Assembly (NCBI GenBank): GCA_964016885.1
Contig: OZ024752.1
Location: forward strand, 36,580,001-36,644,000
Direction: 5' to 3'
DNA length: 64,000 nucleotides
Source of the DNA: Eledone cirrhosa
Taxonomy: Eukaryota
Within the stretch, counting starts at the first letter, position 1. Each line of letters begins with the position of its first letter. This document shows positions 1 through 55,264 of this stretch, one piece after another. A model generated the notes under the pieces. It did not search any database, was not told where the DNA came from, and saw only the letters and a list, made by a program, of their open reading frames with translations. The position numbers and the translations under genes were made by a program.

Positions 1-1234
1 CTGCGAAGACAAAAGTATTTACATCAGTCATAAGAGACCTCTTGTATGCAGATGATTGCGATCTTGTAGCGCACACAGAGAGTGATATGCAGCACATTTT
101 GAATGTATTTTCTGACGCTTGCACTGCCCTGGGTTTGACTGTCAGTCTCAAGAAAACCGTCGTCATGTACCAACCTGCACCTGGTAGGCAGTACACTGAA
201 CCAAACATCTATGTGTATGGCAAACGACTTGGAGTGGTTGATCAGTTTGTCTACCTGGGAAGCACTGTCAATCGATACGGCAACCTTGACAGTGAAATCT
301 CACTTAGGATTAGGAAAGCAAGTGATGCTTTCGGAAAGCTAGAAAGGCGACTCTGGGGTCGGCGAGACATATGCAGGAGGACAAAGGTAAAGGTGTACAG
401 GGCATGTGTACTCTCTTGTCTTCTTTATGCCTGCGAGACCTGGGTCACATATCGACGCCACCTTAAGCAATTGGAGCGTTTCCATCAGATGTGTCTCAGA
501 CGGATACATGGCGTTCGCTGGAGGGACCACATCAGTGATGTCGAGATTTTGGAAAGCTCTATGTGTGACAGTATAGAAGCTCTTGTGCTTAAGCAGCGAC
601 TCCGTTGGAGTGGTCACCTTGCCAGGATGAAGGATTCTAGAATACCAAAACAACTCTTCTATGGAGAGTTGGTTAAAGGAAAACGACCGCCACATAAACC
701 AAAAAAGAGGTATAAGGATTCCTTGAAGGCCTCTCTGAGAGACGCTAACATCTCTGCTGATACATGGGAAAATGTTGCTGCTGATCGTAATAAATGGAGA
801 AAGACTGTATATGAGGGAAAAGTTGCCTTTGAGGCATCTCGAATCGCACACGAGAAAGTAAAGCGGGACGTGAGGAAGGGTATTGCTGTTGCACTTCCAG
901 ACGGCGAGGGTCCTCCTATGTTTCTGACATGCAGCGTCTGTGCGAGACTCTGCCTAAGCAAAGCTGGACTCGAAAGTCATCTTCGCAGTCATAAAGTAAG
1001 ACCAGTGGTTGACTACCAGGCTGCTGTTGGAGATGCTACTCATCATGCTTGCCAAACATGTGGTAGAGAATGTAAATCAGCAGGAGGACTCAAGCGACAT
1101 GCAAAAGTGCACGAACTCCAACCACAGCCGACTATTCCCAGTAAATGTTTTGGTTGCCGACTCTGTGCAAGACATTTTGGATCATTGGCTGGGCTAAAAA
1201 GCCACATTCGATCGCAGCACTGTTAGTTGCTATC

Positions 1235-2061: not shown

Positions 2062-5000
2062 CCACTAGTCTCAACCCCTCTTCCTTTACATACAGATACA
2101 CTTACCCAATGTCTCACCCCCTCTTCACTTACTACAGATACACTTCCCAATAGTCTCACCCCATCTTCATTACATACACGCTACACTTTCCACTAGTCTC
2201 ACCCCTCTTCCTTACATACAGATACACTTACCCACTAGTCACATCCCCTCTTCCTTACATACAGATACACTTACCACTAGTCTCACTCCCCTCTTCCTTA
2301 CATACAGATACACTTACCACTAGTCTCACACCTCTTCCTTACATACAGATACACTTACCACTAGTCTCACCCCCTCTTCCTTACATACAGATACACTTAC
2401 CACTAGTCTCACCCCCTCTTCCTTACATACAGAATACACCTTACCACTAGTCTCACCCCCTCTTCCTTTACATACAGATACACTTACCACTAGTCTCACC
2501 CCTCTTTCCTTACATACAGATACACTTACACTAGTCTCCACTCCCTCTTCCTTACATACAGATACCACTTACCCATAGTCTCACCCCCTCTTCCTTACAT
2601 ACAGATACACTTACCACTAGTCTCACCCCCTCTTCCTTACATACAGATACACTTACCACTAGTCTCACCCCCCCTCTTCCTTACATACAGATACACTTAC
2701 ACTAGTCTCACCTCCCTCTTCCTTACATACAGATTCACTTACCACTAGTCCTCACCCCCTCTTCCTTACATACAGATACACTTACCAACTAGTCTCACCC
2801 CTCTTCCTTACATACAGATACACTTACCACTAGTCTCAACCCCTCTTCCTTACATACAGATACACTTACCACTAGTCTCACCCCCTCTTCCTTACATACA
2901 GATACACTTACCACTAGTCTCACCCCCTCTCCTTACATACAGATACACTTACCACTAGTCTCACCCCCTCTTCCTTACATACAGATACACTTACCACTAG
3001 TCTCACTCCTCTTCCTTACATACAGATACACTTACCACTAGTCTCACCCCCTCTTCCTTACATACAGATACACTTACCACTAGTCTCACCTCCCTCTTCC
3101 TTACATACAGATACACTTACCACTAGTCTCACCCCTCTTCCTTACATACAGATACACTTACCACTAGTCTCACCCCTCTTCCTTACATACAGATACACTT
3201 ACCACTAGTCTCACCCCCTCTTTCCTTACATACAGATACACTTACCACTAGGTCTCACTCCCTCTTCCTTACATACAGATACACTTACCACTAGTCTCAC
3301 CCCCTCTTCCTTACATACAGATACACTTACCCACTAGTCTCACCCCCTCTTCCTTACATACAGATACACTTACCACTAGTCTCCAACTCCCTCTTCCTTA
3401 CATACAGATACACTTACCACTAGTCTCACTCCTCTTCCTTACATACAGATACACTTACCACTAGTCTCACCCCCTCTTCCTTACATACAGATACACTTAC
3501 CACTAGTCTCACCCCTCTTCCTTACATACAGATACACTTACCACTAGTCTCACCCCCTCTTCCTTACATACAGATACACTTACCACTAGTCTCACTCCTC
3601 TTCCTTACATACAGATACACTTACCACTAGTCTCACCCCTCTTCCTTACATACAGATACACTTACCACTAGTCTCACTCCCTCTTCCTTACATACAGATA
3701 CACTTACCACTAGTCTCACCCCTCTTCCTTACATACAGATACACTTACCACTAGTCTCACTCCTCTTCCTTACATACAGATACACTTACCACTAGTCTCA
3801 CCCCTCTTCCTTACATACAGATACACTTACCACTAGTCTCACCCCTCTTCCTTACATACAGATACACTTACCACTAGTCTCACCCCTCTTCCTTACATAC
3901 AGATACACTTACCACTAGTCTCACTCCTCTTCCTTACATACAGATACACTTACCACTAGTCTCACTCCTCTTCCTTACATACAGATACACTTACCACTAG
4001 TCTCACCCCTCTTCCTTACATACAGATACACTTACCACTAGTCTCACTCCTCTTCCTTACATACAGATACACTTACCACTAGTCTCACTCCTCTTCCTTA
4101 CATACAGATACACTTACCACTAGTCTCACCCCCTCTTCCTTACATACAGATACACTTACCACTAGTCTCACCCCCTCTTCCTTACATACAGATACACTTA
4201 CCACTAGTCTCACTCCTCTTCCTTACATACAGATACACTTACCACTAGTCTCACTCCTCTTCCTTACATACAGATACACTTACCACTAGTCTCACTCCTC
4301 TTCCTTACATACAGATACACTTACCACTAGTCTCACCCCCTCTTCCTTACATACAGATACACTTACCACTAGTCTCACCCCCTCTTCCTTACATACAGAT
4401 ACACTTACCACTAGTCTCACCCCTCTTCCTTACATACAGATACACTTACCACTAGTCTCACCCCTCTTCCTTACATACAGATACACTTACCACTAGTCTC
4501 ACCCCCTCTTCCTTACATACAGATACACTTACCACTAGTCTCACCCCCTCTTCCTTACATACAGATACACTTACCACTAGTCTCACCCCCTCTTCCTTAC
4601 ATACAGATACACTTACCACTAGTCTCACCCCCTCTTCCTTACATACAGATACACTTACCACTAGTCTCACCCCTCTTCCTTACATACAGATACACTTACC
4701 ACTAGTCTCACCCCTCTTCCTTACATACAGATACACTTACCACTAGTCTCACTCCTCTTCCTTACATACAGATACACTTACCACTAGTCTCACCCCTCTT
4801 CCTTACATACAGATACACTTACCACTAGTCTCACCCCCTCTTCCTTACATACAGATACACTTACCACTAGTCTCACCCCCTCTTCCTTACATACAGATAC
4901 ACTTACCACTAGTCTCACCCCCTCTTCCTTACATACAGATACACTGACCACTAGTCTCACCCCTCTTCCTTACATACAGATACACTTACCACTAGTCTCA

Positions 5001-8000
5001 CCCCCTCTTCCTTACATACAGATACACTTACCACTAGTCTCACCCCCTCTTCCTTACATACAGATACACTTACCACTAGTCTCACCCCCTCTTCCTTACA
5101 TACAGATACACTGACCACTAGTCTCACCCCTCTTCCTTACATACAGATACACTTACCACTAGTCTCACCCCCTCTTCCTTACATACAGATACACTTACCA
5201 CTAGTCTCACCCCCTCTTCCTTACATACAGATACACTTACCACTAGTCTCACCCCCTCTTCCTTACATACAGATACACTTACCACTAGTCTCACCCCCTC
5301 TTCCTTACATACAGATACACTTACCACTAGTCTCACCCCCTCTTCCTTACATACAGATACACTTACCACTAGTCTCACTCCTCTTCCTTACATACAGATA
5401 CACTTACCACTAGTCTCACCCCTCTTCCTTACATACAGATACACTTACCACTAGTCTCACTCCTCTTCCTTACATACAGATACACTTACCACTAGTCTCA
5501 CCCTTCTTCCTTACATACAGATACACTTACCACTAGTCTCACTCCTCTTCGTTACATACAGATACACTTACCACTAGTCTCACCCGTCTTCCTTACATAC
5601 AGATACACTTACCACTAGTCTCACCCCCTCTTCCTTACATACAGATACACTTACCACTAGTCTCACTCCTCTTCCTTACATACAGATACACTTACCACTA
5701 GTCTCACCCCTCTTCCTTACATACAGATACACTTACCACTAGTCTCACCCTTCTTCCTTACATACAGATACACTTACCACTAGTCTCACTCCTCTTCCTT
5801 ACATACAGATACACTTACCACTAGTTTCACTCCTCTTCCTTACATACAGATACACTTACCACTAGTCTCACCCTTCTTCCTTACATACAGATACACTTAC
5901 CACTAGTCTCACCCTTCTTCCTTACATACAGATACACTTACCACTAGTTTCACTCCTCTTCCTTACATACAGATACACTTACCACTAGTCTCACTCCTCT
6001 TCCTTACATACAGATACACTTACCACTAGTCTCACTCCTCTTCCTTACATACAGATACACTTACCACTAGTCTCACCCGTCTTCCTTACATACAGATACA
6101 CTTACCACCAGTCTCACCCCTCTTCCTTACATACAGATACACTTACCACTAGTCTCACCCCTCTTCCTTACATACAGATACACTTACCACTAGTCTCACC
6201 CTTCTTCCTTACATACAGATACACTTACCACTAGTCTCACCCTTCTTCATTACATACAGATACACTTACCACTAGTCTCGCCCCCTCTTCCTTACATACA
6301 GATACACTTACCACTAGTCTCACATCTCTTCGTTACATACAAATACACTTACCACTAGTCTCACCCTTCTTCCTTACATACAGATACACTTACCACTAGT
6401 CTCACCCCTCTTCCTTACATACAAATACACTTACCACTAGTCTCACCCGTCTTCCTTACATACAGATACACTTACCACCAGTCTCACCCCTCTTCCTTAC
6501 ATACAGATACACTTACCACTAGTCTCACCCGTCTTCCTTACATACAGATACACTTACCACTAGTCTCACCCTTCTTCCTTACATACAGATACACTTACCA
6601 CTAGTCTCACCCTTCTTCATTACATACAGATACACTTACCACTAGTCTCGCCCCCTCTTCCTTACATACAGATACACTTACCACTAGTCTCACATCTCTT
6701 CGTTACATACAAATACACTTACCACTAGTCTCACCCTTCTTCCTTACATACAGATACACTTACCACTAGTCTCACCCCTCTTCCTTACATACAAATACAC
6801 TTACCACTAGTCTCACCCGTCTTCCTTACATACAGATACACTTACCACCAGTCTCACCCCTCTTCCTTACATACAGATACACTTACCACTAGTCTCACCC
6901 GTCTTCCTTACATACAGATACACTTACCACTAGTCTCACCCTTCTTCCTTACATACAGATACACTTACCACTAGTCTCACCCTTCTTCATTACATACAGA
7001 TACACTTACCACTAGTCTCACCCTTCTTCCTTACATACAAATACACTTACCACTAGTCTCACTCTTCTTCCTTACATACAGATACACTTACCACTAGTCT
7101 CACCCTTCTTCCTTACATACAGATACACTTACCACTAGTCTCACCCCTCTTCCTTACATACAAATACACTTACCACTAGTCTCACCCGTCTTCCTTACAT
7201 ACAGATACACTTACCACCAGTCTCACCCCTCTTCCTTACATACAGATACACTTACCACTAGTCTCACATCTCTTCGTTACATACAAATACACTTACCACT
7301 AGTCTCACCCTTCTTCCTTACATACAGATACACTTACCACTAGTCTCACCCCTCTTCCTTACATACAGATACACTTACCACTAGTCTCACATCTCTTCGT
7401 TACATACAAATACACTTACCACTAGTCTCACCCTTCTTCATTACATACAGATACACTTACCACTAGTCTCACCCTTCTTCCTTACATACAAATACACTTA
7501 CCACTAGTCTCACTCTTCTTCCTTACATACAGATACACTTACCACTAGTCTCGCCCCCTCTTCCTTACATACAGATACACTTACCACTAGTCTCACCCCT
7601 CTTCCTTACATACAGATACACTTACCACTAGTATCACCCCTCTTCCTTATATACAGATACACTTACCACTAGTCTCATCCCTCTTCCTTACATACAGATA
7701 CACTTACCACTAGTCTCGCCCCCTTTTCCTTACATACAGATACACTTACCACTAGTCTTACATCTCTTCGTTACATACAAATACACTTACCACTAGTCTC
7801 ACCCTTCTTCCTTACATACAGATACACTTACCACTAGTCTCACCCCTCTCCCTTACATACAAATACACTTACCACTAGTCTCACCCCTCTTCCTTACATA
7901 CAGATACACTTACCACTAGTCTCACCCGTCTTCATTACATACAGATACACTTACCACTAGTCTCACCCCTCTTCCTTACATACAAATACACTTACCACTA

Positions 8001-10040
8001 GTCTCACCCCTCTTCCTTACATACAGATACACTTACCACTAGTCTCACCCCTCTTCCTTACATACAAATACACTTACCACTAGTCTCACCCTTCTTCCTT
8101 ACATACAAATACACTTACCACTAGTCTCGCCCCCTCTTCCTTACATACAGATACACTTACCACTAGTCTCACCCCTCTTCCTTACATACAGATACACTTA
8201 CCACTAGTCTCACCCCTCTTCCTTACATACAGATACACTTACCACTAGTCTCACCCCCTCTTCCTTACATACAGATACACTTACCACTAGTCTCACCCCT
8301 CTTCCTTACATACAGATACACTTACCACTAGTCTCACCCCTCTTCCTTACATACAGATACACTTACCACTAGTCTCACCCTTCTTCCTTACATACAGATA
8401 CACTTACCACTAGTCTCACCCTTCTTCCTTACATACAGATACACTTACCACTAGTCTCACCCCTCTTCCTTACATACAAATACACTTACCACTAGTCTCA
8501 CCCTTCTTCATTACATACAGATACACTTACCACTAGTCTCACCCGTCTTCATTACATACAGATACACTTACCACTAGTCTCACCCCTCTTCCTTACATAC
8601 AAATACACTTACCACTAGTCTCACCCCTCTTCCTTACATACAGATACACTTACCACTAGTCTCACCCCTCTTCCTTACATACAAATACACTTACCACTAG
8701 TCTCACCCTTCTTCATTACATACAGATACACTTACCACTAGTCTCACCCGTCTTCATTACATACAGATACACTTACCACTAGTCTCACCCCCTCTTCCTT
8801 ACATACAAATACACTTACCACTAGTCTCACCCCTCTTCCTTACATACAGATACACTTACCACTAGTCTCACCCCCTCTTCCTTACATACAGATACACTTA
8901 CCACTAGTCTCACCCCTCTTCCTTACATACAAATACACTTACCACTAGTCTCACCCTTCTTCCTTACATACAAATACACTTACCACTAGTCTCACCCTTC
9001 TTCATTACATACAGATACACTTACCACTAGTCTCACCCCCTCTTCCTTACATACAGATACACTTACCACTAGCCTCACCCCTCTTCCTTACATACAGATA
9101 CACTTACCACTAGTCTCACCCTTCTTCATTACATGCAGATACACTTACCACTAGTCTCACCCTTCTTCCTTACATACAGATACACTTACCACTAGTCTCA
9201 CCCCTCTTCCCTACATACAGATACACTTACCACTAGTCTCACCCCTCTTCCTTACATACAGATACACTTACCACTAGCCTCACCCCTCTTCCTTACATAC
9301 AGATACACTTACCACTAGCCTCACCCCTCTTCCCTACATACAGATACACTTACCACTAGTCTCACCCCCTCTTCCTTACATACAGATACACTTACCACTA
9401 GTCTCACCCCTCTTCCTTACATACAAATACACTTACCACTAGTCTCACCCTTCTTCCTTACATACAGATACACTTACCACTAGCCTCACCCCTCTTCCTT
9501 ACATACAGATACACTTACCACTAGTCTCACCCTTCTTCATTACATACAGATACACTTACCACTAGTCTCACCCGTCTTCCTTACATACAAATACACTTAC
9601 CACTAGTCTCACCCTTCTTCCTTACATACAGATACACTTACCACTAGTCTCACCCGTCTTCCTTACATACAAATACACTTACCACTAGTCTCACCCATCT
9701 TCCTTACATACAGATACACTTACCACTAGTCTCACCCTTCTTCATTACATACAGATACACTTACCACTAGTCTCACCCGTCTTCCTTACATACAAATACA
9801 CTTACCACTAGTCTCACCCTTCTTCCTTACATACAGATACACTTACCACTAGTCTCACCCGTCTTCCTTACATACAAATACACTTACCACTAGTCTCACC
9901 CTTCTTCCTTACATACAAATACACTTACCACTAGTCTCACCCCTCTTCCCTACATACAGATACACTTACCACTAGTCTCACCCCTCTTCCCTACATACAG
10001 ATACACTTACCACTAGTCTCACCCCTCGTCGTTACACACA
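2062..10040. repeat. Tandem satellite, 41-42 bp unit CCACTAGTCTCACCCCTCTTCCTTACATACAGATACACTTA, about 190 copies
   Basis: Read directly as a head-to-tail array without spacers. Confidence 0.98.
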
Positions 10041-21554: not shown

Positions 21555-21661
21555 TTTTCCTTCATCAGTTGTCTGTTGGGGATCATGGATATTTCTACGC
21601 ATTAAAGACAAGATATCTAAGCCCAGTGCGTCAATAACTAAAGGAAGTTATTGGGGGAAAA
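21555..21661 (-). ncRNA. Non-circularly permuted hammerhead candidate, copy 1
   Basis: Minus strand: ttttcc..caataact/agttattg, acgca, tggg, gatATC ttgtct ttaa tgcgt a GAAA tatc..ccca..agacaa CTGATGA aggaaaa. Confidence 0.75.
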
Positions 21662-22237
21662 AGGGAGAGAGAGAGAAAATATATAACAGAAGGGGAAAGG
21701 GGGGGAAAAAGCGAAAAAAAAAACGGAAAACAACAAACTGAAGGGGGAAACCCGAAGCACATGTGTGTGAGCAGCTCGAAGAGAGAGAAGAAATTAAAGT
21801 CGACATCAACTACTGAACTTAAATCTGAGGCTGTGTAGACGAGAAATAAAAACACGTCTGACCTCCTCAAGAGTAACTGAGAAAGAGACAGCGAGAGGAA
21901 CAGGCGAGAAAAACAGCGAGGTGGCTAGCAGAGAGGGTGAGAGTAAAAGTGAGAGGGAGAAAGGGAGAGAGAGAAAGAAGGGGGAAGAATTGATAGCAAC
22001 AAAAGTGAGAGGGAGAAAGAGAGAACAGGTCACTGCAAAACTTGATAAAAATTAATATATATATATATATGTGTGTGTGTGTGTATATATGTATATATAC
22101 ACACACACACATACATACATACATATATAGATCTACAAAACCAAATTGTAAAACCATAATTAAATTAAATTGTTAAATTGTTTAGAACATCAGGCGAAGT
22201 CATTCTTTTCCTTTATATATATATATATATATATAGG

Positions 22238-22965: not shown

Positions 22966-24071
<1,106 letters not shown>

Positions 24072-29384: not shown

Positions 29385-32300
29385 CAATGCTTCCCAACCT
29401 TTTGTGCACCATGCCGCACCTCCACATCTAAAAAGTTGTTATGCCCCTCATCTTTAATATGAAAACAGCAAGGATCAACTGCAAAGTGTAAACAAATTGT
29501 CGTATTGGTGGTGCCAAATGCACAATAACATGTGTGGAGGAGGTGAGACAGGAATTTCTGCCAGTAATGTGTACCAAAGTTGTCTTGGAGTAGGTGGTGT
29601 CAGATACACAATAACATGTGTGGAAAAGGTGAGACAGGAGTTTCCGACAGTAATGTGCACCAAAGTTGTCTTGGAGTAGGTGGTGCCAGATATACAATAA
29701 CATGTGTGGAGAAAGTGAGACAGGAGTTTCTGACAGTAATGTGTACCAAAGTTGTCTTGGAGTAGGTGGTGCCAGATATACAATAACATGTGTGGCGAAA
29801 GTGAGACAGGAGTTTCTGACAGTAATGTGTACCAAAGTTGTCTTGGAGTAGGTGGTGCCAGATATACAATAACATGTGTGGAGAAAGTGAGACAGGAGTT
29901 TCTGACGATGTGTACCAAAGTTGTCTTGGAGTAGGTGGTGCCAGATATACACTAACATGTGTGGAGAGAGTGAGACAGGAGTTTCTGACAATGTGTACCA
30001 AAGTTGTCTTGGAGTAGGTGGTGCCAGATATACACTAACATGTGTGGAGAGAGTGAGACAGGAGTTTCTGACAATGTGTACCAAAGTTGTCTTGGAGTAG
30101 GTGGTGCCAGATATACAATAACATGTGTGGAGAGAGTGAGACAGGAGTTTCTGACAGTAATGTGCACCAAAGTTGTCTTGGAGTAGGTGGTGCCAGATAT
30201 ACAATAACATGTGTGGAGAAAGTGAGACAGGAGTTTCTGACGATGTGTACCAAAGTTGTCTTGGAGTAGGTGGTGCCAGATATACAATAACATGTGTGGA
30301 GAGAGTGAGACAGGAGTTTCTGACAATGTGTACCAAAGTTGTCTTGGAGTAGGTGGTGCCAGATATACAATAACATGTGTGGAGAGAGTGAGACAGGAGT
30401 TTCTGACGATGTGTACCAAAGTTGTCTTGGTGTAGGTGGTGCCAGATATACAATAACACGTGTGGAGAAAGTGAGACAGGAGTTTCTGACAGTAATGTGC
30501 ACCAAAGTTGTCTTGGAGTAGGTGGTGCCAGATATACAATAACATGTGTGGAGAGAGTGTGACAGGAGTTTCTGACAGTAATGTGCACCAAAGTTGTCTT
30601 GGAGTAGGTGGTGCCAGATATACAATAACATGTGTGGAGAAAGTGAGACAGGAGTTTCTGACGATGTGTACCAAAGTTGTCTTGGAGTAGGTGGTGCCAG
30701 ATATACAATAACATGTGTGGAGAGAGTGAGACAGGAGTTTCTGACGATGTGTACCAAAGTTGTCTTGGAGTAGGTGATGCCAGATATACAATAACATGTG
30801 TGGAGAGAGTGATACAGGAGTTTCTGACGATGTGTACCAAAGTTGTCTTGGTGTAGGTGGTGCCAGATATACAATAACATGTGTGGAGAGAGTGAGACAG
30901 GAGTTTCTGACAATGTGTACCAAAGTTGTCTTGGAGTAGGTGGTGCCAGATATACAATAACATGTGTGGAGAGAGTGAGACAGGAGTTTCTGACAATGTA
31001 TACCAAAGTTGTCTTGTAGTAGGTGGTGCCAGATATACAATAACATGTGTGGAGAGAGTGAGACAGGAGTTTCTGACTATGTGTACCAAAGTTGTCTTGG
31101 AGTAGGTGGTGCCAGATATACAATAACATGTGTGGAGAGAGTGTGACAGGAGTTTCTGACAATGTGTACCAAAGTTGTCTTGTAGTAGGTGGTGCCAGAT
31201 ATACAATAACATGTGTGGAGAGAGTGAGACAGGAGTTTCTGACGATGTGTACCAAAGTTGTCTTGGAGTAGGTGGTGCCAGATATACAATAACATGTGTG
31301 GCGAAAGTGAGACAGGAGTTTCTGACAGTAATGTGTACCAAAGTTGTCTTGGAGTAGGTGGTGCCAGATATACAATAACATGTGTGGAGAAAGTGAGACA
31401 GGAGTTTCTGACGATGTGTACCAAAGTTGTCTTGGTGTAGGTGGTGCCAGATATACAATAACACGTGTGGAGAAAGTGAGACAGGAGTTTCTGACGATGT
31501 GTACCAAAGTTGTCTTGGAGTAGGTGATGCCAGATATACAATAACATGTGTGGAGAGAGTGAGACAGGAGTTTCTGACGATGTGTACCAAAGTTGTCTTG
31601 GAGTAGGTGATGCCAGATATACAATAACATGTGTGGAAAAAGTGAGACAGGAGTTTCTGACAGTAATGTGCACCAAAGTTGTCTTGGAGTAGGTGGTGCC
31701 AGATATACAATAACATGTGTGGAGAAAGTGAGACAGGAGTTTCTGACAGTAATGTGCACCAAAGTTGTCTTGGTGTAGGTGGTGCCAGATATACAATAAC
31801 ATGTGTGGAGAAAGTGAGACAGGAGTTTCTGACAATGTGTACCAAAGTTGTCTTGGAGTAGGTGGTGCCAGATATACAATAACATGTGTGGAGAAAGTGA
31901 GACAGGAGTTTCTGACAATGTATACCAAAGTTGTCTTGGAGTAGGTGGTGCCAGATATACAATAACATGTGTGGAGAGAGTGAGACAGGAGTTTCTGACA
32001 ATGTATACCAAAGTTGTCTTGGAGTAGGTGGTGCCAGATATACAATAACATGTGTGGAGAGAGTGAGACAGGAGTTTCTGACAATGTATACCAAAGTTGT
32101 CTTGGAGTAGGTGATGCCAGATATACAATAACATGTGTGGAGAGAGTGAGACAGGAGTTTCTGACAGTAATGTGCACCAAAGTTGTCTTGGTGTAGGTGG
32201 TGCCAGATATACAAGAACATGTGTGGAGAAAGTGAGACAGGAGTTTCTGACAATGTGCACCAAAGTTGTCTTGGAGTAGGTGGTGCCAGATATACAATAA

Positions 32301-32978
32301 CATGTGTGGAGAGAGTGAGACAGGAGTTTCTGACAATGTGTACCAAAGTTGTCTTGGAGTAGGTGGTGCCAGATATACAATAACATGTGTGGAGAGAGTG
32401 AGACAGGAGTTTCTGACAGTAATGTGCACCAAAGTTGTCTTGGAGTAGGTGGTGCCAGATATACAAGAACATGTGTGGAGAAAGTGAGACAGGAGTTTCT
32501 GACAATGTGCACCAAAGTTGTCTTGGAGTAGGTGGTGCCAGATATACAATAACATGTGTGGAGAGAGTGAGACAGGAGTTTCTGACAATGTGTACCAAAG
32601 TTGTCTTGGAGTAGGTGGTGCCAGATATACAAGAACATGTGTGGAGAGAGTGAGACAGGAGTTTCTGACAATGTGCACCAAAGTTGTCTTGGTGTAAGTG
32701 CTGCCAGATACACACTAACATGAATGGAGGAGGTGAGATAGAAGTTTCTGACAATAATGTGCATCAAAGTTACGTTGGTATAGGTGGTGCCAGATGCACA
32801 ATAACATGTGTGGTGAAAGTGAGACAGAAGATTCTGACAGTAATGTACACCAAAGTTGCCTCGGTGTAAAAGTAATAAAAATCTGAGGTTTGTTCTCATT
32901 AACATCATTTTCAAATGACCCCCTTAAATATTAAAATTGCTTCCTTGTCGGGCGTTCACCCCTCGTTGGGAATCACTG
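29385..32978. mobile_element. Non-autonomous hAT (Charlie-like) element with internal minisatellite
   Basis: Imperfect TIRs caatgcttcccaac / gttgggaatcactg; 8-bp TSD atatagac / atatagat. Confidence 0.8.
29495..32867. repeat. Minisatellite, 83/86-bp unit, about 40 copies
   Basis: Unit ccaaagttgtcttggagtaggtggtgccagatatacaataacatgtgtggagagagtgagacaggagtttctgaca(gta)atgtgta. Confidence 0.97.
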
Positions 32979-33450
32979 ATATAGATTGAAATAGAATTCC
33001 ATTACGACAACTTAAAGGAGAGCACGATTGAGGCACTGAAATACTTCTATTGTGACAGCTAAACAGTATCTCACAGCGCCTGTGACAAGCAGTAGAATTG
33101 CGCCCTGCCCAAATATCTGACACCCATCTTCCATATATCTCTAAAATCGGTATATGCGAAGTATTTGCAAAAGTGTTAGTGTATTTATTTAAAGGGAACG
33201 ATCTGTGTAATACTGATCTTTCACAAATATTAGACCCTATTAAAATATTTCACAGGTCATACTATGAGGTAGGCCTCTGTGGTCATGTAGTTCCCAGCGT
33301 TGTAGCTGTATTTTTACCCCTGGAAGCCTAATAATTTATCATACCACTTCTCCTGTGTATATCTATCTATATAGCTGTAAAATCTTTACAAACCATTTCC
33401 ATTGTTCCATTGTCAGAACAGAAACCAGATAACCTTAATCAAAAGATTAA

Positions 33451-33908
33451 CCCTTTCACATTTACATTACTCTATATATACTATTGTATCTTTGTGGTAA
33501 AGGCTTTATCGTACATAATTATCTCACATAATATCGAATCAACGAGATTTTGATGTTATTCATTTTGTGAAGGCGTATGGCTGATTGGTTAGAGAACTGA
33601 ATTCGCAATCGTGAGGTTGTCAAGTTCGATATCTGGACCAGGCGATGCGTCATGTCCTCGAGCAAGACATTTTATTTCACGTTGCTCCTTCTACCTGGAG
33701 TTGCGACCGAAAGATAGTATTAGCAATTGGAAAGACAAACGGAAACATTGTTTCCTCGGTCCGATTTGACGAAAGGCGATCGACAATTTTTTAATTTTAT
33801 TTTGAGAACAATACCTTAACGTCAGTGTAAGTGGCTAGTTACAGCCAGTTTCAACAGTAAAAGGTGAGAGAATTCTGGCCGGATATGGCTGGTTTAAATG
33901 CTAAAGGG
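33451..33908. mobile_element. piggyBac-like MITE (TTAA TSD) containing a SINE
   Basis: TTAA|ccctttcacattt ... aaatgctaaaggg|TTAA. Confidence 0.75.
33568..33782 (+). mobile_element. tRNA-derived SINE family 2 (CORE-like body)
   Basis: A box tggctgattgg, B box gttcgatatc, then gtcctcgagcaagacatttt; copies at 36225, 48345 and 60935. Confidence 0.8.
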
Positions 33909-34089
33909 TTAAACTCATCAATTAAACTCATTAAACTCCTCAATACATGTGAAGCCATAAAGTTTATCTAAATGTTTTAATGAATATAATAAACTTTACC
34001 CTTAAAGAGAAGATTGAAGTTAGTCGAATTTTTTTCAGTACATTATTGCATCATATATATATATATCCAGTTATTATTATTTCTAACGT

Positions 34090-34580
34090 AAGGTTAACTT
34101 TGCCTTTCACCCTTACGGGGTCGATAAAATAAAGTACCAGTAATGCACTGGGTATTTGCTGGCCTTGTGCCTAACGTAGAAACAATTTATTTCTAACGTA
34201 GAGGGTCGGACGCCATGTTTTGCAGCAAAGAGTTACGGCCTTTTATGATCTGAGTTCAAATCCCGCCGAGGTTAACTTTACCTTTCATCATCACGGGGGT
34301 CGATAAAATAAAGTACCAGTAATACACTGAGATAATTGCTGGCCTTGTGCCAAAAGTAGAAACAATGATTTCTAACGTAGAAGAAAGACCAGCAATTTTT
34401 GGCATGTGGGGAAGGGAGTTGTTTAAATCAAATGCAGTACTTGGGATTTGATTTTATCGATCCCGGAAGAATGTAAAGTAAAAATTGACCTCGGCGGGAT
34501 TCGATCTCAGAACGTAAAAAAAATCTTAGCTAAATACTGCAATGTCATTTTTATCTGACGCTCTATCAGTTCTGTCAACC
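34090..34580. mobile_element. Cluster of SINE family 1 copies and fragments
   Basis: Two plus-strand copies and one diverged minus-strand copy. Confidence 0.8.
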
Positions 34581-34891: not shown

Positions 34892-34985
<94 letters not shown>

Positions 34986-35050
34986 TATTCCTACTCACTT
35001 TCCGTTGCTTAAACCCTTTTGTTGTTACTCTAGCGTCCCCCTTTATTTAC

Positions 35051-35156
35051 GTGTCCCAACGACTTTTTTTAGCCGCTGTTCGCACCAACCTGAGGCATAT
35101 GGCCCTTAAAGCGATGAAATGCCGAGGACGGTAGGAGGGTCACTGATGAAGGACTC
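35051..35156 (+). ncRNA. Non-circularly permuted hammerhead candidate, copy 2
   Basis: gtcc..hairpin..tcgc acc-aa-cct ga ggcATA tggccct taaa gcga t GAAA tgcc g agg-ac-ggt agg agggtca CTGATGA a ggac. Confidence 0.8.
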
Positions 35157-35160
35157 ACTT

Positions 35161-35233
<73 letters not shown>

Positions 35234-45304: not shown

Positions 45305-45694
45305 GGTTAGAGCGTCAGACTAAATACTTAGCAGAATTTCTTCCTGTCCTTTACGTTCTGAGTTCAAATTCTATACCTTAGAGACCTCTATAGAATGTAA
45401 ACCGGTTGGTAAATAAGTGTATTTCTATTATATTATTTTGTTTTATAATAAACCGCGGATGTATGTAAAATTATGTAAAAACATTGAGAAGAAAAGGAAC
45501 CAAACGTGTTTATCTTCATTTTTCTCTACTTCTGTTTATATTGGATATATATACATATATAATATATACATATATAATATATATATATATACACACACAC
45601 TGTAATAGTGTAGTATAAGGAATTATGTAAAAGCTTTTAGTGCATTTTCGACCCATTATATATATATGTATGTATTATATATATAATACATATA

Positions 45695-45739
<45 letters not shown>

Positions 45740-45749
45740 TATATATATA

Positions 45750-45799
<50 letters not shown>

Positions 45800-45862
45800 C
45801 TTCCATATACTGTACCGATTGTGTTGTTATTTCTGTTTACCTTTTACATACACACAAACACA

Positions 45863-45928
<66 letters not shown>

Positions 45929-45935
<7 letters not shown>

Positions 45936-46253
45936 ATACTTTTGGAGGGTCATGTTGCCAATAAGAAACACATGCACAAGTTGCTTTCACTTCAATTTAT
46001 TATAATAAATTTATAAATTTAGGAATTTATAAATTTCTGGTTGGTTGGTTGGTTCCACAACCAGATGGTTGTGGAACCAACCAACCAGAAATTTATACAT
46101 TCCTAAATTTATAAATTTATTATAATAAATTGAAGTGAAAGCAACTAGTGCATGTGTTTCTTATTGGCAACATGACCCTCCCAAAGTATAACAATATCGG
46201 TTTCAACACACGTTTTCAGATAAAGAATCTTGCTAAACAAATTAAGAAACGAA

Positions 46254-46254
<1 letters not shown>
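45929..46254. mobile_element. Family F fold-back (tail of the Penelope-like element at 52.8 kb)
   Basis: Palindrome centred at ~46065; arms match 52840-53012. Confidence 0.8.
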
Positions 46255-46339
<85 letters not shown>

Positions 46340-46443
46340 TTATGTGTGTGTATGTATATATGTATATGTATATATGAGTATGTATATATGTATATGTATA
46401 TATGTATAATGTAGGAGGTATATTCTGTATATATGTATATATG

Positions 46444-46476
<33 letters not shown>

Positions 46477-47513
46477 GAAACAGGCTGCATACTTCCTTCG
46501 AATCAGTAATAAAATGCTTTATTTAGTGAAACATGATCAACAGCATTATACTATCAATTTCTAAATGTTTTTGTTGATTGTTGAGAATCTTGACTAAAAT
46601 TAACATTATCGATCTTATCAGATATCTATGATTCATTTGAGAAAAGAAATTGTCATTTTCTTTGTGTAGTTCCAATAATGTCCTCCTGTTTTTCAGTAAT
46701 ATTGCGAGCGTGTATTTATATTCACTGTCAATGAGTGCGACCGTTCGTTCGTTCTGTTACACATTCCAGATTATTCTAGAGATATCTGTCTGAGGTATAT
46801 TTCTTTCGTTGCTTCAAGTAAAATTATTTGAAAATGAAGGCGAGGATTCACTTTCTTTCACCATTGGCATGGAAAGCAGATGTAAAATTATGATGATATT
46901 TGCCTACACATATTAACAATAGTTTTAACAAATTCTACTGTTTCATTATAATTCTTTTCAAACTTTGGATTCCCATAATCTTCTTTACTTCTGATACATT
47001 GTGGCATACTCCAAATATTGGAGTAAAGCCATGTGGAGAAAGAAGGGTTGGCGAGAAGAAGCTAAAACATTAAATAAACTAAGTAAAACAACGGTGTTTC
47101 ACTATAAAACCAGTTACATATGAAGGCGAGGATTCACTTTCTTTCACTATTGGCTAGTTTAGCAAACCAGCTTTTATGTCTTAAACTGCTGAGAGCTTTA
47201 TTTTATTTATTTGTACCGGAACTAATTTTTCTGGCTCATTATACTTGCTTTTTTTTTTTTTTGGTTCTCTTTAGGGTGGGCTTGGTGGGTTGGTTGGGGT
47301 TGGTGGGTTGGCTGGGGTTGTAATGAACTATACGATGAATGGTGGTTAATTAAACATCGTGTTTCCTTTCTTTAAGCTATTTTGTAACTTGTTCAGAGCT
47401 GAAAGAAATCGCCACGTCTTTCTTCCAAAATGACAAGATTTTGGTTATTCTTTTTAGTCAGTGACATTAAAAAGAAAATGGAGAAGGTCCATTGCCTAAT
47501 TACAGGGAAAAGC

Positions 47514-47767: not shown

Positions 47768-48160
47768 AGTCGTTTGGAAGCCTCGACAATGCAAATGGGT
47801 AAATCTCCGGGTAACAAGATCCGGTGGTGGAGAGAGAGATGTAAGTGGGTGTACGTTGAGATGCGTGGTGTGTAAAGATGTGTAAATGTGTAGAAGAAAG
47901 AAGGGAGATTTACCCATTTGCATTGTCGAGGCTTCCAAACGACTTAAAGATATTTATTTATTATTCCACAATGCTTCAAGCAAACTTCAATACTCTCTTA
48001 TATCTAATAACTTAATTTAGTTATTATTGCACCGACGTGAGGTATATGATTTTTAATGCAATGAAATATCTATGATCGTCGGCAAATCACTGATGAGGGA
48101 CTCATTTTATTATATGTTATCCATGTGCAACCTACAGTATTCTTCTCCCCATTTTTTCAC
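47764..48160 (+). mobile_element. TA-flanked element with 5' inversion carrying the permuted hammerhead
   Basis: Inverted repeat 47763-47808 / 47904-47948; tail atgt.a.ccatgtgcaacc shared with 52333-52436. Confidence 0.75.
48005..48101 (+). ncRNA. Non-circularly permuted hammerhead candidate, copy 3
   Basis: taataact/agttatta, ttgca ccgacg tg aggtATA tgattt ttaa tgcaa t GAAA tatct atgat cgtcgg c aaatca CTGATGA gggac. Confidence 0.8.
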
Positions 48161-52332: not shown

Positions 52333-52433
52333 TAAAGCGATGAAATAACAATGAAGATTGGAAAATCACTGATGAAGGACTATTTTTATCATATGTAACC
52401 CATGTGCAACCACGCAGTATTCATTCTTCTCAT

Positions 52434-52841: not shown

Positions 52842-53785
52842 TTCTTTATCTGAAAACGTGTGTTGAAACCGATATTGTTATACTTTGGGAGGGTCATGTT
52901 GCCAATAAGAAACACACGCACCAGTTGCTTTCACTTCAATTTATTATAATCAATTTATAAATTTAGGAATTTATAAATTTCCGGTTGGTTGGTTGGTTCC
53001 ACGACCAGATGGTTGTTTATATATTGTCAAAATTCTTTCGTTACACATTCTGTGACCTCTTCAGTGACTGGGGGTTCTTTTCTTTGTTTTTTGTGCCTCT
53101 CCTTTGTTCTGTCCGACGCCATCTTGTTTTTGTGTGTGTGTTGTGTGCTTAGTTTGCGCATGTGTTACATCCGGGTGTCTGTGTGTGTTTATATTCGTTT
53201 ATTTATTTGTTTATTTACATGTTACTGGTTGGTTGTTTGTTCTATGTGCGTGTGTGTTTTCATTTTGTCCTTAATTGTAAGTTGTGATGTTGCTGTTCCA
53301 CTCATGTTTTCTATTTAATTTTGGTTGTAATTCATTTATGTTTATTGCCTCTGTGATTTGTCTAAACATTGCGTCTTTTCTGTGTAGATTCTATTTTTAT
53401 TTCTATGTTCTCTAATTTACCCTTATGTTCTATTTTAGCATGTTGGTAGAGTACAGATGATTCTTTACTATCTTGAAAGTCTCGGCAGTGTTCATTTATC
53501 CGTTCCCCTATACTACGAGCTGTCTCACCTATGTACACTATATTTTTATCTCTACATTGTCCTTCAGTACATCTTATGCTATATACTACATTTCTAGTTT
53601 TACAGTTAATATGGGGGCTTAATTTACAGATTATACATTTCTCATCTATACAGGGAGGTCTTTGAAAAGGGTATGTCTTGCTAATAAGTGTTTTTATGGA
53701 GGTACCTGGTCTTTCTACTATCTTAATATTGAGTTTATGTTTATCTAGGGCCCTTCTCAATTTGTAAGCTAATTCACCTCTAGGA
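52840..53785 (-). mobile_element. Penelope-like element 3' portion (GIY-YIG endonuclease, hammerhead, tail)
   Basis: GIY-YIG frame, then degenerate hammerhead 53026-53068 (gtca CTGAAGA g-gtcaca-gaatg-tgtaac GAAA...tgac), ending in (TA)n. Confidence 0.88.
53362..53785 (-). pseudogene. Penelope-type GIY-YIG endonuclease domain (partial)
   Basis: C-x4-C-x2-C linker then CKTRNVVYSIRC..C....YIGETARSIGERINEH...LYQH; C-terminus appears frameshifted. Confidence 0.88.
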
Positions 53786-55264
53786 ATGGAGTTTGGCCAA
53801 GATAAATGCTCATACATGACTGTAAAGCGGAGAAAAACAACAACCCAATCTAGCAACATTGTCATCAATGGTCTAACTGTTTCACCGATATCTGATGAGG
53901 ACTGCTACAGATACCTGGGGATAGATGAGAACATATCCTATAATGGTATCTGTAATAAAGAACGCGTAACCAGGGAATACTACACCCGATTAAGAAAGAT
54001 CTGGTCATCGGAACTCTCTGCGAAAAACAAAACAGTGTCTCACAATGTGTTTGCTGTGCCTGTCCTAACACCAACGTTTGGAATACTCAATTGGACGATA
54101 GACGAAATCCGAGCAGTTGATGTTGGAACTCGAAAAATACTGAACAACACCGGAAACTTCCACATCAACAGTGACATAGACCGCCTTTACTTGAAACGTA
54201 AGCAGGGAGGCAGAGGCCTAACATCAGTTCAGACAACATTTGAATGTCGCATCATATCTCTCCGACAACATCTACGAACCTCGAAGCGTAGGAGCCCGCT
54301 TCTTGAGCAAGTCTATCTGCATGAAACAGATAACATCATGAGAGTTGGGAAGGAACTCCTTGAGAGATATTCCCTGTGTGATAATCAAAAACTCACACCC
54401 AGGGATGTCGCTCAGCAGTATCGCAGTGAATCCATGGATGAAAAACTGCATGCCTATCAGCAAAAAATCATGCATGGATATGTTGCCAGGAAGCTCCAGA
54501 ATGAGAGTAATATAGATAAGGAAAGTAGTCTATCTTGGACCAACAACCGCTATATTGGCTCCCACTTTGAAGGATACGCTTTTGCAATCCAAGAACAGGA
54601 GATTAGCACGAAATACCTGATTCACAAAAGAGATAGGGATGCAGGCAAAACACCTAGATGTGATAACAAGTGCAGACTCTGCAGAACTAACATCGAGGAT
54701 ATCACCCATGTCATCAGCAGCTGCCCAAAGATGTCATCGCGGTACTATCTACCTATGAGGCATGATGTATTGGCCAAAACACTGTACAATGCAGTTCGTA
54801 AAAAAGATAGCCCCGATAATAAACACATTAAAAGCTACAACAATGTGGAAGACATCCATGTACATAATATGAAAGAGTACTGGTGGAATGTTCCAGTAAA
54901 AACCCCAATAAAATGCAGGCATAACAGACGAGATATTATGATATGGGACAGGGAGAAGAAAACATGCACAGTAGTGGAAATTAGCTGCCCAGCAGATGCC
55001 AATATAATATCAAAGATTAGTGAAAAGGAGAATATTTATGCAGAACTGATGAGAAATCTGCAGATACTCCACCCTGATTACACCTTCAGATTTATGCCTG
55101 TGATTATTGGGGCACTGGGATATGTTAGTAACTGCCTCAATACAAATCTTGAGAAGCTAGGCTTCACAGGAACAGAAAGGACACAATTAGTTTGGAAACT
55201 ACAAGTACAATCCATTAATGGAACAGTAAAAATATGTAAAACATTCCAAACATTTTGCATCTAA
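53786..55264 (+). CDS. R4/Dong-like RLE retrotransposon ORF, 5'-truncated (RT C-terminus, zinc knuckle, RLE)
   Basis: GMEFGQDKC, YRYLGI, RLYLKRKQGGRGL, AIQEQ, CRLC..EDITHVISSC, RHD, RRD..VEISCP..K..Y, PVIIGALG. Confidence 0.9.
   Translation: MEFGQDKCSYMTVKRRKTTTQSSNIVINGLTVSPISDEDCYRYLGIDENISYNGICNKERVTREYYTRLRKIWSSELSAKNKTVSHNVFAVPVLTPTFGILNWTIDEIRAVDVGTRKILNNTGNFHINSDIDRLYLKRKQGGRGLTSVQTTFECRIISLRQHLRTSKRRSPLLEQVYLHETDNIMRVGKELLERYSLCDNQKLTPRDVAQQYRSESMDEKLHAYQQKIMHGYVARKLQNESNIDKESSLSWTNNRYIGSHFEGYAFAIQEQEISTKYLIHKRDRDAGKTPRCDNKCRLCRTNIEDITHVISSCPKMSSRYYLPMRHDVLAKTLYNAVRKKDSPDNKHIKSYNNVEDIHVHNMKEYWWNVPVKTPIKCRHNRRDIMIWDREKKTCTVVEISCPADANIISKISEKENIYAELMRNLQILHPDYTFRFMPVIIGALGYVSNCLNTNLEKLGFTGTERTQLVWKLQVQSINGTVKICKTFQTFCI

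What the first reader, a model, noticed from the sequence alone, without database searches (positions are those of the whole stretch)
35051..35156. Hammerhead ribozyme with scrambled strand order (non-circular permutation)
Known: hammerhead types I, II and III are circular permutations of the order CUGANGA > GAAA > NUH. Seen here, the order is NUH (AUA 35097-35099) > GAAA (35116-35119) > CUGAUGA (35143-35149), which is none of those. Yet the core helices form in the correct register. Stem III is ggcaU/A-tgcc. Stem I is tggccct/agggtca, running from the base after the triplet to the base before C3. Extra helices are tcgc/gcga (ending just before GAAA) and acc..cct/agg..ggt. Stems I and III cross, forming a pseudoknot. 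Inference: a self-cleaving rearranged hammerhead used by a mobile element, which standard type I-III searches would miss. From memory, non-circular hammerhead permutations have been reported elsewhere; I cannot tell whether this family is among them.
Basis: partly seen in the sequence, partly recalled or inferred. Interest (0 to 1): 0.95.

Follow-up and report, generated by a model that had tools for sequence, protein, structure and literature searches.

The report
Scrambled hammerhead ribozyme in Penelope-like retroelements
This stretch is one of more than ten thousand copies of a small jumping-gene RNA that appears to carry a self-cutting hammerhead RNA with its parts in a rearranged order and a new outer scaffold, and the same design sits at the ends of Naiad retroelements, which were thought to lack a normal hammerhead.

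Summary
Blocks run S-G-C, the non-circular order of Eckert 2023 (type SGC, so far only in metatranscriptomes). The scaffold differs: a 5' leader supplies the stem II strand, two extra helices sit between A9 and stem II, and a k-turn-like loop joins stem III to the stem I/II clamp helix. Across 15 copies 91% of cells pair and 20 of 35 pairs change compensatorily. The genome holds at least 10,677 matches, in non-coding 0.5-0.8 kb tandem units inserted in (TA)n with Penelope-like truncations and tails. In 80 metagenomic Naiad loci, 16 flanks carry non-circular hammerheads (8 this form, 6 a circular permutation of it, 2 plain CSG) and none a canonical one. Copy 5' ends cluster at the predicted cut, though microhomology could explain that. 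Cleavage and expression are untested, and no Naiad with this ribozyme was found in this genome. The scan earlier found a CSG hammerhead on other DNA (e1-7368731). Verdict: new variant of a known kind, high interest.

The parts
34982..35168 (+). 5'-truncated copy (187 bp) of the family-A non-coding tandem element, between two (TA)n runs
   Evidence: differs from the majority of 79 family-A copies at 4 internal positions (34990, 35016, 35076, 35133)
35053..35056 (+). Leader strand of helix IIa (pairs with 35151-35154)
   Evidence: 88% paired, 1 of 4 pairs compensatory; a 4-8 bp equivalent in family G and Naiad loci
35057..35078 (+). Hairpin P, second arm of the junction inserted between A9 and stem II; weakened here by a private T>C at 35076
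   Evidence: 89% paired, 5 of 8 pairs compensatory
35080..35083 (+). Leader-supplied 5' strand of stem II (pairs with 35111-35114)
   Evidence: 90.5% paired, 2 of 5 pairs compensatory; reaches position 11.1 in family G and most Naiad loci
35085..35090 (+). 5' strand of the clamp (NC / stem I-II interaction) helix, pairs with 35130-35135
   Evidence: 95.6% paired, 5 of 6 pairs compensatory
35091..35093 (+). Non-bulged strand of the k-turn-like loop (UGA; positions 3n, 2n, 1n)
   Evidence: 1n = A in 15 of 15, 2n = G in 12 of 15; k-turn consensus recalled, folding not tested
35094..35106 (+). Block S: stem III 5' strand, AUA triplet, predicted cut between 35099 and 35100, stem I 5' strand
35107..35123 (+). 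4-nt linker, stem II 3' strand, N11.1 (U35115), GAAA 35116-35119 and stem III 3' strand (block G)
35124..35135 (+). 3-nt bulge plus GA of the k-turn-like loop (35124-35129) and 3' strand of the clamp helix (35130-35135; private T>A at 35133)
   Evidence: 1b = G in 15 of 15, 2b = A in 14 of 15
35136..35154 (+). Block C: stem I 3' strand, CUGAUGA 35143-35149, A35150 (possible 10.1 partner of U35115), 3' strand of helix IIa
47993..48103 (+). Second, diverged copy of the ribozyme (subfamily F) with compensatory changes in the clamp helix and stem I
21555..21665 (-). Third copy (subfamily D), different stem I and clamp sequence; about 2,500 first-look candidates genome-wide
52333..52382 (+). Fourth copy, 5'-truncated a few bases downstream of the predicted cut, preceded by (TA)n

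Best explanation
A hammerhead ribozyme in S-G-C order with a new scaffold, carried by a non-coding Penelope-like element (PLE) that probably descends from a Naiad 3' end. SHOWN: the fold (catalytic core; stems I and III crossing; a 5' leader that pairs three times, with the strand before GAAA, the strand after CUGAUGA and the strand before stem I; a hairpin completing a four-way junction at A9/stem II; a 3-nt bulge with tandem G-A between stem III and the clamp helix), the repeat anatomy, and the same fold at Naiad ends. INFERRED: tandem arrays are transcribed; the RNA folds once block C is made and cuts after AUA (35099), possibly with protein help, giving 0.5-0.8 kb monomers. Leader and core strands then still hold both monomer ends at the active site, which would favour circularisation. 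A PLE reverse transcriptase/endonuclease supplied in trans nicks (TA)n and starts internally about 15 or about 56 nt past A9. cDNA stops at the cut on linear monomers, or runs on over uncut multimers or circles, giving arrays. This particular copy is a truncated, slightly decayed insertion.
For: Covariation: 91.4% of 524 cells paired, 20 of 35 pairs compensatory, 0/500 shuffles, slid controls 26-47%. Core kept in every multi-copy subfamily: of 100 copies found by the leader alone, 93 were examined and 79 keep both GAAA and CUGANGA; the 14 failures are private lesions. Leader architecture beats shuffled leaders (<=1/200) in 14 of 20 cases tried. Repeat anatomy: 10,677 matches; spacing 551-806 nt in family A, 515-637 in B; a 9-copy array; inverted partners; 3' ends in two clusters, A9+14..18 (27 of 100) and +55..68 (38 of 100), matching the two RT start sites and tail of PLEs (PMC11167929; PMC8557442). 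5' ends: 7 of 100 (5 independent events) lie at +1..-4 of the predicted cut, against 20 over the next 179 nt. Naiads: 16 of 80 loci have a non-circular hammerhead in a sense-strand flank, 0 canonical, 0 in 190 kb of ORF, 1 hit in 10 shuffle rounds; L241 has an intact 974-aa GIY-YIG-then-RT ORF ending 41 nt before the ribozyme. By eye, the same fold is at the 3' ends of published Naiad consensi from a ctenophore, cnidarians and cephalopods.
Against: No cleavage or expression data: RNA runs held only small shares, and the two laid covered only a microsatellite. The pair closing the core (10.1-11.1) is weak: 6 of 8 representatives pair (U-A, C-G, U-G), 112/500 shuffles as high, and it is A-A in several subfamilies. 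The window copy's own leader does not beat shuffles (47/200), nor do L089 and L033; 2 cases had no core and 1 no full architecture. The 5'-end cluster coincides with an ATA microhomology to the (TA)n target. No Naiad remnant in this genome keeps the ribozyme (0 of 35 stretches scanned), and the remnants are decayed, so the mobilising enzyme is unidentified. 64 of 80 Naiad loci gave no hit, though 29 have under 300 nt of 3' flank. Sequence-level similarity to Naiad ribozymes is weak (best E about 0.008, rough). The 15 rows were hand-picked, are related, and the structure was derived from them. In one tested PLE, hammerhead cleavage was dispensable in vitro and needed protein.
Confidence: 0.7

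Rival explanations
1. The fold is real but no longer (or only marginally) cuts in these families; it is kept as the docking and internal-priming structure for the PLE reverse transcriptase.
For: RT start sites lie 15 and 56 nt past the core. In the anole PLE, cleavage was not needed for insertion and no RNA-seq reads ended at the cut. Position 10.1-11.1 is A-A in some subfamilies. 68 of 100 copies run more than 180 nt past the cut.
Against: All 15 core positions are kept in every subfamily while the helices around them change. The core is also kept across Naiads with unrelated helix sequences and in a second permutation. 5' ends cluster at the cut.
Confidence: 0.17
2. An active ribozyme, but the elements are not Naiad derivatives: the motif came from, or is now moved by, another PLE clade (for example the Hydra-like family with an intact 800-aa ORF in L157), or arose separately.
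For: Naiad remnants here are 31-75% identical to the query with stops while family-A copies are 99% identical. No Naiad-linked copy was found. PLE ORFs of other clades lie beside copies.
Against: Those neighbouring PLEs carry their own canonical type I hammerheads, and the S-G-C copies beside them are separate insertions after a (TA)n run or unrelated sequence. The same six-helix design flanks Naiad ORFs and Octopus Naiad consensi. The present mobiliser may still be non-Naiad; that part is compatible with the best explanation.
Confidence: 0.12
3. Chance juxtaposition of short motifs in a satellite-like repeat.
For: Single-sequence folding is unremarkable (z = -1.28) and gives stem I no weight, although nested folding cannot show crossing helices.
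Confidence: 0.01

Closest known systems
Type-SGC hammerhead ribozymes (HRIMA-1 and SGC variants; Eckert et al. 2023, PMC10085705; main text parts 2-6 of 8 and supplement passages read)
   Same: Block order S-G-C, crossing stems I and III, a 3-4 nt linker from stem I to stem II, a helix that clamps stem I to stem II, about 100 nt.
   Different: There the stem II strand and clamp strand follow CUGANGA at the 3' end, and block C is assumed unbreakable. Here they lie in a 5' leader, with two extra helices between A9 and stem II and a k-turn-like loop on stem III. There: metatranscriptomes only, none in genomes of known organisms. Here: over 10,000 copies in an animal genome.
Type-CSG hammerheads (same paper)
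   Same: The plain CSG form occurs in Naiad flanks L233/L234. A CSG form with two hairpins after A9 (L218, L268, L269, L285-L287) is a circular permutation of the window's fold.
   Different: The window is S-G-C; the two-hairpin insert is not in the published CSG pair.
Naiad Penelope-like elements (Craig et al. 2021, PMC8557442; passages and supplement parts 1, 24, 25 plus search hits read)
   Same: (TA)n targeting, 5' truncation, partial tandems, inverted partners, 30-40 bp tail; the same ribozyme fold at 3' ends.
   Different: The window element has no ORF. The paper reports that Naiads lack canonical hammerheads and marks eight 'HHR_half_core' cases without a structure.
Non-LTR retrozymes (Li et al. 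2026, 10.64898/2026.07.22.740005; part 1 of 5 and passages read)
   Same: Non-coding tandem repeats with one hammerhead per unit, proposed as non-autonomous PLE derivatives.
   Different: They are defined by a type I hammerhead and were searched with type I descriptors; this unit has an S-G-C ribozyme.
Kink-turn motif (box C/D type; consensus recalled from general knowledge, no call)
   Same: 3-nt bulge followed by tandem G-A/A-G pairs between two helices.
   Different: Family G has a plain 3-nt bulge and several Naiad loci a bulge on the other strand or a hairpin, so the bend rather than the k-turn is the constant.

Membership tests
Hammerhead ribozyme | Core C3-A9, G12-A15.1, U16.1, H17 | tested here: met
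   79 of 93 leader-selected copies keep both blocks
Hammerhead ribozyme | Stems I and III in register with the core | tested here: met
   89.5% and 96.0% paired; 5 of 7 and 2 of 5 pairs compensatory
Hammerhead ribozyme | Stem II closing directly on A9 and G12 | tested here: inconclusive
   At most one pair (6 of 8, 112/500 shuffles); the rest of stem II comes from the leader
Hammerhead ribozyme | Site-specific self-cleavage | not testable with these tools
   Only indirect: 5' ends cluster at the predicted cut; no usable RNA reads
Type-SGC (Eckert 2023) | Block order S-G-C | tested here: met
Type-SGC (Eckert 2023) | Short linker from stem I to stem II, and a helix joining the other sides of stems I and II | tested here: met
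   4-nt linker; clamp helix 95.6% paired
Type-SGC (Eckert 2023) | Block C continuous with its stem II strand (no insertion over 1-2 nt) | tested here: not met
   The stem II strand is in the 5' leader in the window families and in 8 Naiad hits. It works like type SGC but is not filed as a member as defined.
Type-SGC (Eckert 2023) | Sequence homology to the HRIMA-1 or SGC-variant alignments | not tested
   The alignments are not available as a searchable model; Rfam has no matching family
Non-LTR retrozyme | Non-coding tandem units, one ribozyme each | tested here: met
Non-LTR retrozyme | Type I hammerhead | tested here: not met
   No canonical fold in a family-A dimer
Non-LTR retrozyme | Circular RNA monomers | not testable with these tools
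   No RNA run holds the unit
Naiad PLE (or non-autonomous derivative) | (TA)n insertion, 5' truncation, tandem/inverted copies, 30-40 bp tail | tested here: met
   tail 40-50 nt here
Naiad PLE (or non-autonomous derivative) | ORF with N-terminal GIY-YIG, CxC and RT | tested here: not met
   Units are non-coding; not an autonomous Naiad
Naiad PLE (or non-autonomous derivative) | 3' end homologous to a Naiad 3' UTR | tested here: inconclusive
   Same architecture; weak model hit to L241; no linked Naiad in G000
Kink-turn | 3-nt bulge plus tandem G-A/A-G pairs between two helices | tested here: met
   1b G 15/15, 1n A 15/15, 2b A 14/15, 2n G 12/15; consensus recalled
Kink-turn | Kinked fold, L7Ae-family binding | not testable with these tools
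   Needs FRET or binding assay

The most novel reading that the evidence does not exclude
Non-circularly permuted hammerheads are not rare metatranscriptome curiosities but the normal ribozymes of Naiad retroelements and their non-coding parasites across animal phyla. They form a structural subclass in which the A9-to-stem II backbone is opened by a two-helix junction, it exists in two circular permutations (S-G-C with leader, C-S-G with two hairpins), and in this genome it uses a k-turn that could let a host L7Ae-family protein switch cleavage on.
Probability: 0.5. Interest if true: 0.9.

Novelty: new variant of a known kind. Interest (0 to 1): 0.82.

Why it matters
It would place non-circular hammerheads in animal genomes at over 10,000 copies, answer why Naiads seem to lack the hammerhead of other Penelope-like elements, and suggest a host for the orphan type-CSG ribozymes. 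It breaks the three-block rule used to enumerate hammerhead permutations, so existing descriptors undercount ribozymes. It gives a cheap test (one transcription gel) and a natural series of scaffolds (k-turn, plain bulge, three-way junction) for studying how one catalytic core tolerates rewired backbones.

Tried and rejected
Rfam: 0 at gathering in the window and in 40 Naiad loci; only chance hits at E<=10. MFE folding is uninformative for crossing helices. A canonical type I/II/III fold using neighbouring units was rejected. Expression: 20 RNA-labelled runs held only 0.04-0.07 of the words; the two laid covered only a microsatellite; two unlabelled runs hold the unit, as contigs, which cannot show RNA ends. 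Autonomous partner in G000: a motif from Octopus Naiad consensi gave 2 solo, diverged copies with no ORF; an RT-motif pattern gave 0; a second gave 16 decayed remnants and a protein search 63 matches; none of 35 stretches scanned had the ribozyme attached. PLE ORFs beside copies (L150, L156, L157) were rejected as partners because they have their own type I hammerheads. A word-index protein search found nothing; viral contigs held no Naiad relative. A first 5'-end tally was set aside because divergent families lacked references; one search replaced it. The promoter/terminator scan is for bacteria and showed nothing. Literature searches that found no report of this form: (open-access library only). 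Passages of PMC13725137, PMC10162972 and 10.64898/2026.09.16.752053 gave no precedent for helices between A9 and stem II; one further reference cited there for 'additional helices' (their ref. 13) was not identified. bioRxiv supplements were not seen, and figures of Eckert 2023 were seen only as legends.

Full report
OBSERVATION. The three hammerhead blocks are at the stated places and in the order S (AUA 35097-99), G (GAAA 35116-19), C (CUGAUGA 35143-49). Stem III (4 bp plus U16.1-A15.1) and stem I (7 bp) are in register and cross. An S-G-C descriptor finds 3 sites in the window and none in 50 shuffles; a covariance model later adds a fourth, truncated copy. Rfam has nothing.

WHAT SURROUNDS IT. 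The ribozyme lies in a 187-bp piece (34982-35168) between two (TA)n runs. It is a 5'-truncated copy of a dispersed repeat: the 39 best other places are 99% identical. A G-to-C-block pattern has 10,677 matches in the 3.0-Gb genome against 1 for the control; a leader-only pattern has 10,046 against 0; two further patterns reach other subfamilies (1,192 and 680). Full units are pyrimidine-rich, non-coding and tandem: spacing 551-806 nt in family A (26 spacings), 515-637 in B (5), 783 in G (1), with one array of nine. In 100 consecutive copies, 27 end 14-18 nt after A9, 38 end at +55 to +68, 27 show no (TA)n within range and 8 end elsewhere. Two 3' ends about 40 nt apart are the 'tail' that Frangieh 2024 traced to two internal RT start sites (PMC11167929, passages). 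With (TA)n targeting, 5' truncation and inverted partners, this is the anatomy of a non-autonomous Penelope-like element (Craig 2021). The host is an animal, probably a cephalopod (inference from Naiad remnants resembling Octopus Naiads by eye).

THE FOLD. Subfamilies differ in every helix. On 15 hand-picked representatives of subfamilies A-F and kin (family G left out because it misaligned), six helices give 91.4% of 524 cells paired, 20 of 35 pairs with compensatory change, 0/500 shuffles and 26-47% when slid. The rows are related and the model was read from them, so this is not a p-value. The leader pairs three times: 35053-56 with 35151-54 (IIa), 35080-83 with 35111-14 (stem II), 35085-90 with 35130-35 (clamp), with hairpin 35057-78 between. 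Between stem III and the clamp is a 3-nt bulge followed by GA opposite GA: 1b G 15/15, 1n A 15/15, 2b A 14/15, 2n G 12/15, the k-turn consensus as I recall it. Family G has a plain 3-nt bulge instead. The weak point is the pair closing the core: the base after A9 and N11.1 pair in 6 of 8 representatives (U-A, U-G, C-G; 112/500 shuffles), are A-A in others, and in family G and most Naiad loci 11.1 pairs with the leader instead. Either way two helices are inserted at A9/stem II, forming a four-way junction. The core is not an artefact of how I searched: of 100 copies found by the leader alone, 53 matched the core pattern, 40 of the other 47 were fetched and 26 of these are intact; the 14 failures are private. 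Between families A and B the ribozyme is 89% identical and the rest 81%.

COMPARISON WITH TYPE SGC. Eckert 2023 named this order type SGC and showed cleavage (0.007-0.19 per min), found it only in metatranscriptomes, and assumed CUGANGA is never separated from its stem II strand by more than 1-2 nt. Their stem II and clamp strands follow block C. Here they precede block S. The window form is thus a circular permutation of SGC opened inside block C. It meets the order and clamp criteria and fails the continuity criterion.

THE NAIAD LINK. Craig 2021 reports that Naiads lack canonical hammerheads but marks eight 'half core' cases, including Octopus vulgaris and Euprymna. Read by eye, the 3' ends of Naiad_Obim, _Ovul and _Esco, three Acropora consensi, Naiad_Bfor (stem I only 2 bp) and four passages I could place only by file position show the same leader architecture; the nematode passages seen have the canonical order (not a full count of the 54 consensi). 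For a computed test I took a Naiad remnant from G000, found full-length relatives with N-terminal GIY-YIG and RT and fetched the best 80 of 409 confirmed metagenome stretches. An any-order scan finds 16 sense-strand hits in 16 loci, 13 in 3' and 3 in 5' flanks: 8 S-G-C with leader, 6 C-S-G with two hairpins (23-27 nt) after A9, 2 plain C-S-G; none in canonical order, none in 190 kb of ORF, 1 on the reverse strand, 1 in 10 shuffle rounds. L233/L234 and L268/L269 are near-duplicates. 64 loci gave no hit; 29 of 80 have under 300 nt of 3' flank. L241 has an intact 974-aa ORF ending 41 nt before the ribozyme. The C-S-G form with two hairpins is independent support for the four-way junction: helix IIa is simply closed by a loop. 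Against: the model from G000 copies reaches only L241 (E about 0.008, rough) among the sense-strand Naiad hits, and in G000 itself Naiads are decayed (63 matches) with no ribozyme attached in 35 stretches scanned. Neighbouring PLE ORFs of other clades have their own type I hammerheads. The enzyme that moves family A today is unknown.

IS IT CUT? Not shown. No RNA run was informative. In 100 consecutive copies, 7 begin at +1 to -4 of the predicted cut (5 independent events), 5 more at +3 to +11, 20 over the next 179 nt (2 of them reference artefacts) and 68 run further; background predicts about 0.6 in 5 nt. Two of 40 other copies end there. This fits reverse transcription running off a cleaved 5' end, but the ATA at the cut is also a microhomology to the target. 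The majority that run past the cut require uncut multimers or circles as templates. In the one PLE studied in vitro, cleavage needed protein and was dispensable for insertion.

VERDICT. A real hammerhead-type fold (about 0.95), probably self-cleaving in intact copies (about 0.75), probably of Naiad origin (about 0.7). The permutation is known; the scaffold, the abundance in an animal genome and the Naiad connection were not found in nine literature searches of an open-access library. New variant of a known kind; interest 0.82.

Noticed in passing
L268:~3010-3150, L269, L285, L286, L287 (3' flanks), L218 (5' flank): C-S-G hammerheads with two hairpins between A9 and stem II, a circular permutation of the window's fold, next to Naiad ORFs.
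   Followed up: partly
L233:~3600-3700 and L234: Plain type-CSG hammerhead about 900 nt after a Naiad ORF; suggests the published metagenomic CSG pair may come from Naiads.
   Followed up: partly
window 21275+, 23660+/23419-, 27591+, 35848+, 36868+/36749-, 38818+/38768-, 49884-, 59954+, 60367+/60259-, 60834+, 62680-, 16744-, 12940-, 12331-: 18 matches to a loose canonical type I hammerhead descriptor, several as inverted pairs typical of PLE ends; no shuffle control was run.
   Followed up: no
L157:1790-4189 (+) with an inverted partial copy; L156:67-2151: Intact 800-aa PLE-type ORF (Hydra-like by motif, my reading; no Pfam hit), a candidate trans-acting enzyme for (TA)n-targeting elements.
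   Followed up: partly
L150:6574-9166 (-): Frameshifted PLE ORF (RT then GIY-YIG) with its own canonical hammerhead, inside a 5.2-kb tandem duplication.
   Followed up: partly
L147:~2650-2800 (-) and L148:6327-6439 (+): Two further diverged S-G-C-like copies resembling the Octopus Naiad 3' end, without an ORF.
   Followed up: partly
window 3555-10000 and further arrays; 29900-34500: A 41-bp satellite with strong GC skew and an ~83-bp tandem repeat giving spurious long ORFs.
   Followed up: no
window 3-1223 (+), 53768-55261 (+), 45633-46508 (-): Fragments of non-LTR retrotransposon-like ORFs; family not tested.
   Followed up: no
window 23194-23885: 345-bp near-perfect inverted repeat with 2 nt between arms, containing the 23419/23660 hammerhead pair.
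   Followed up: no
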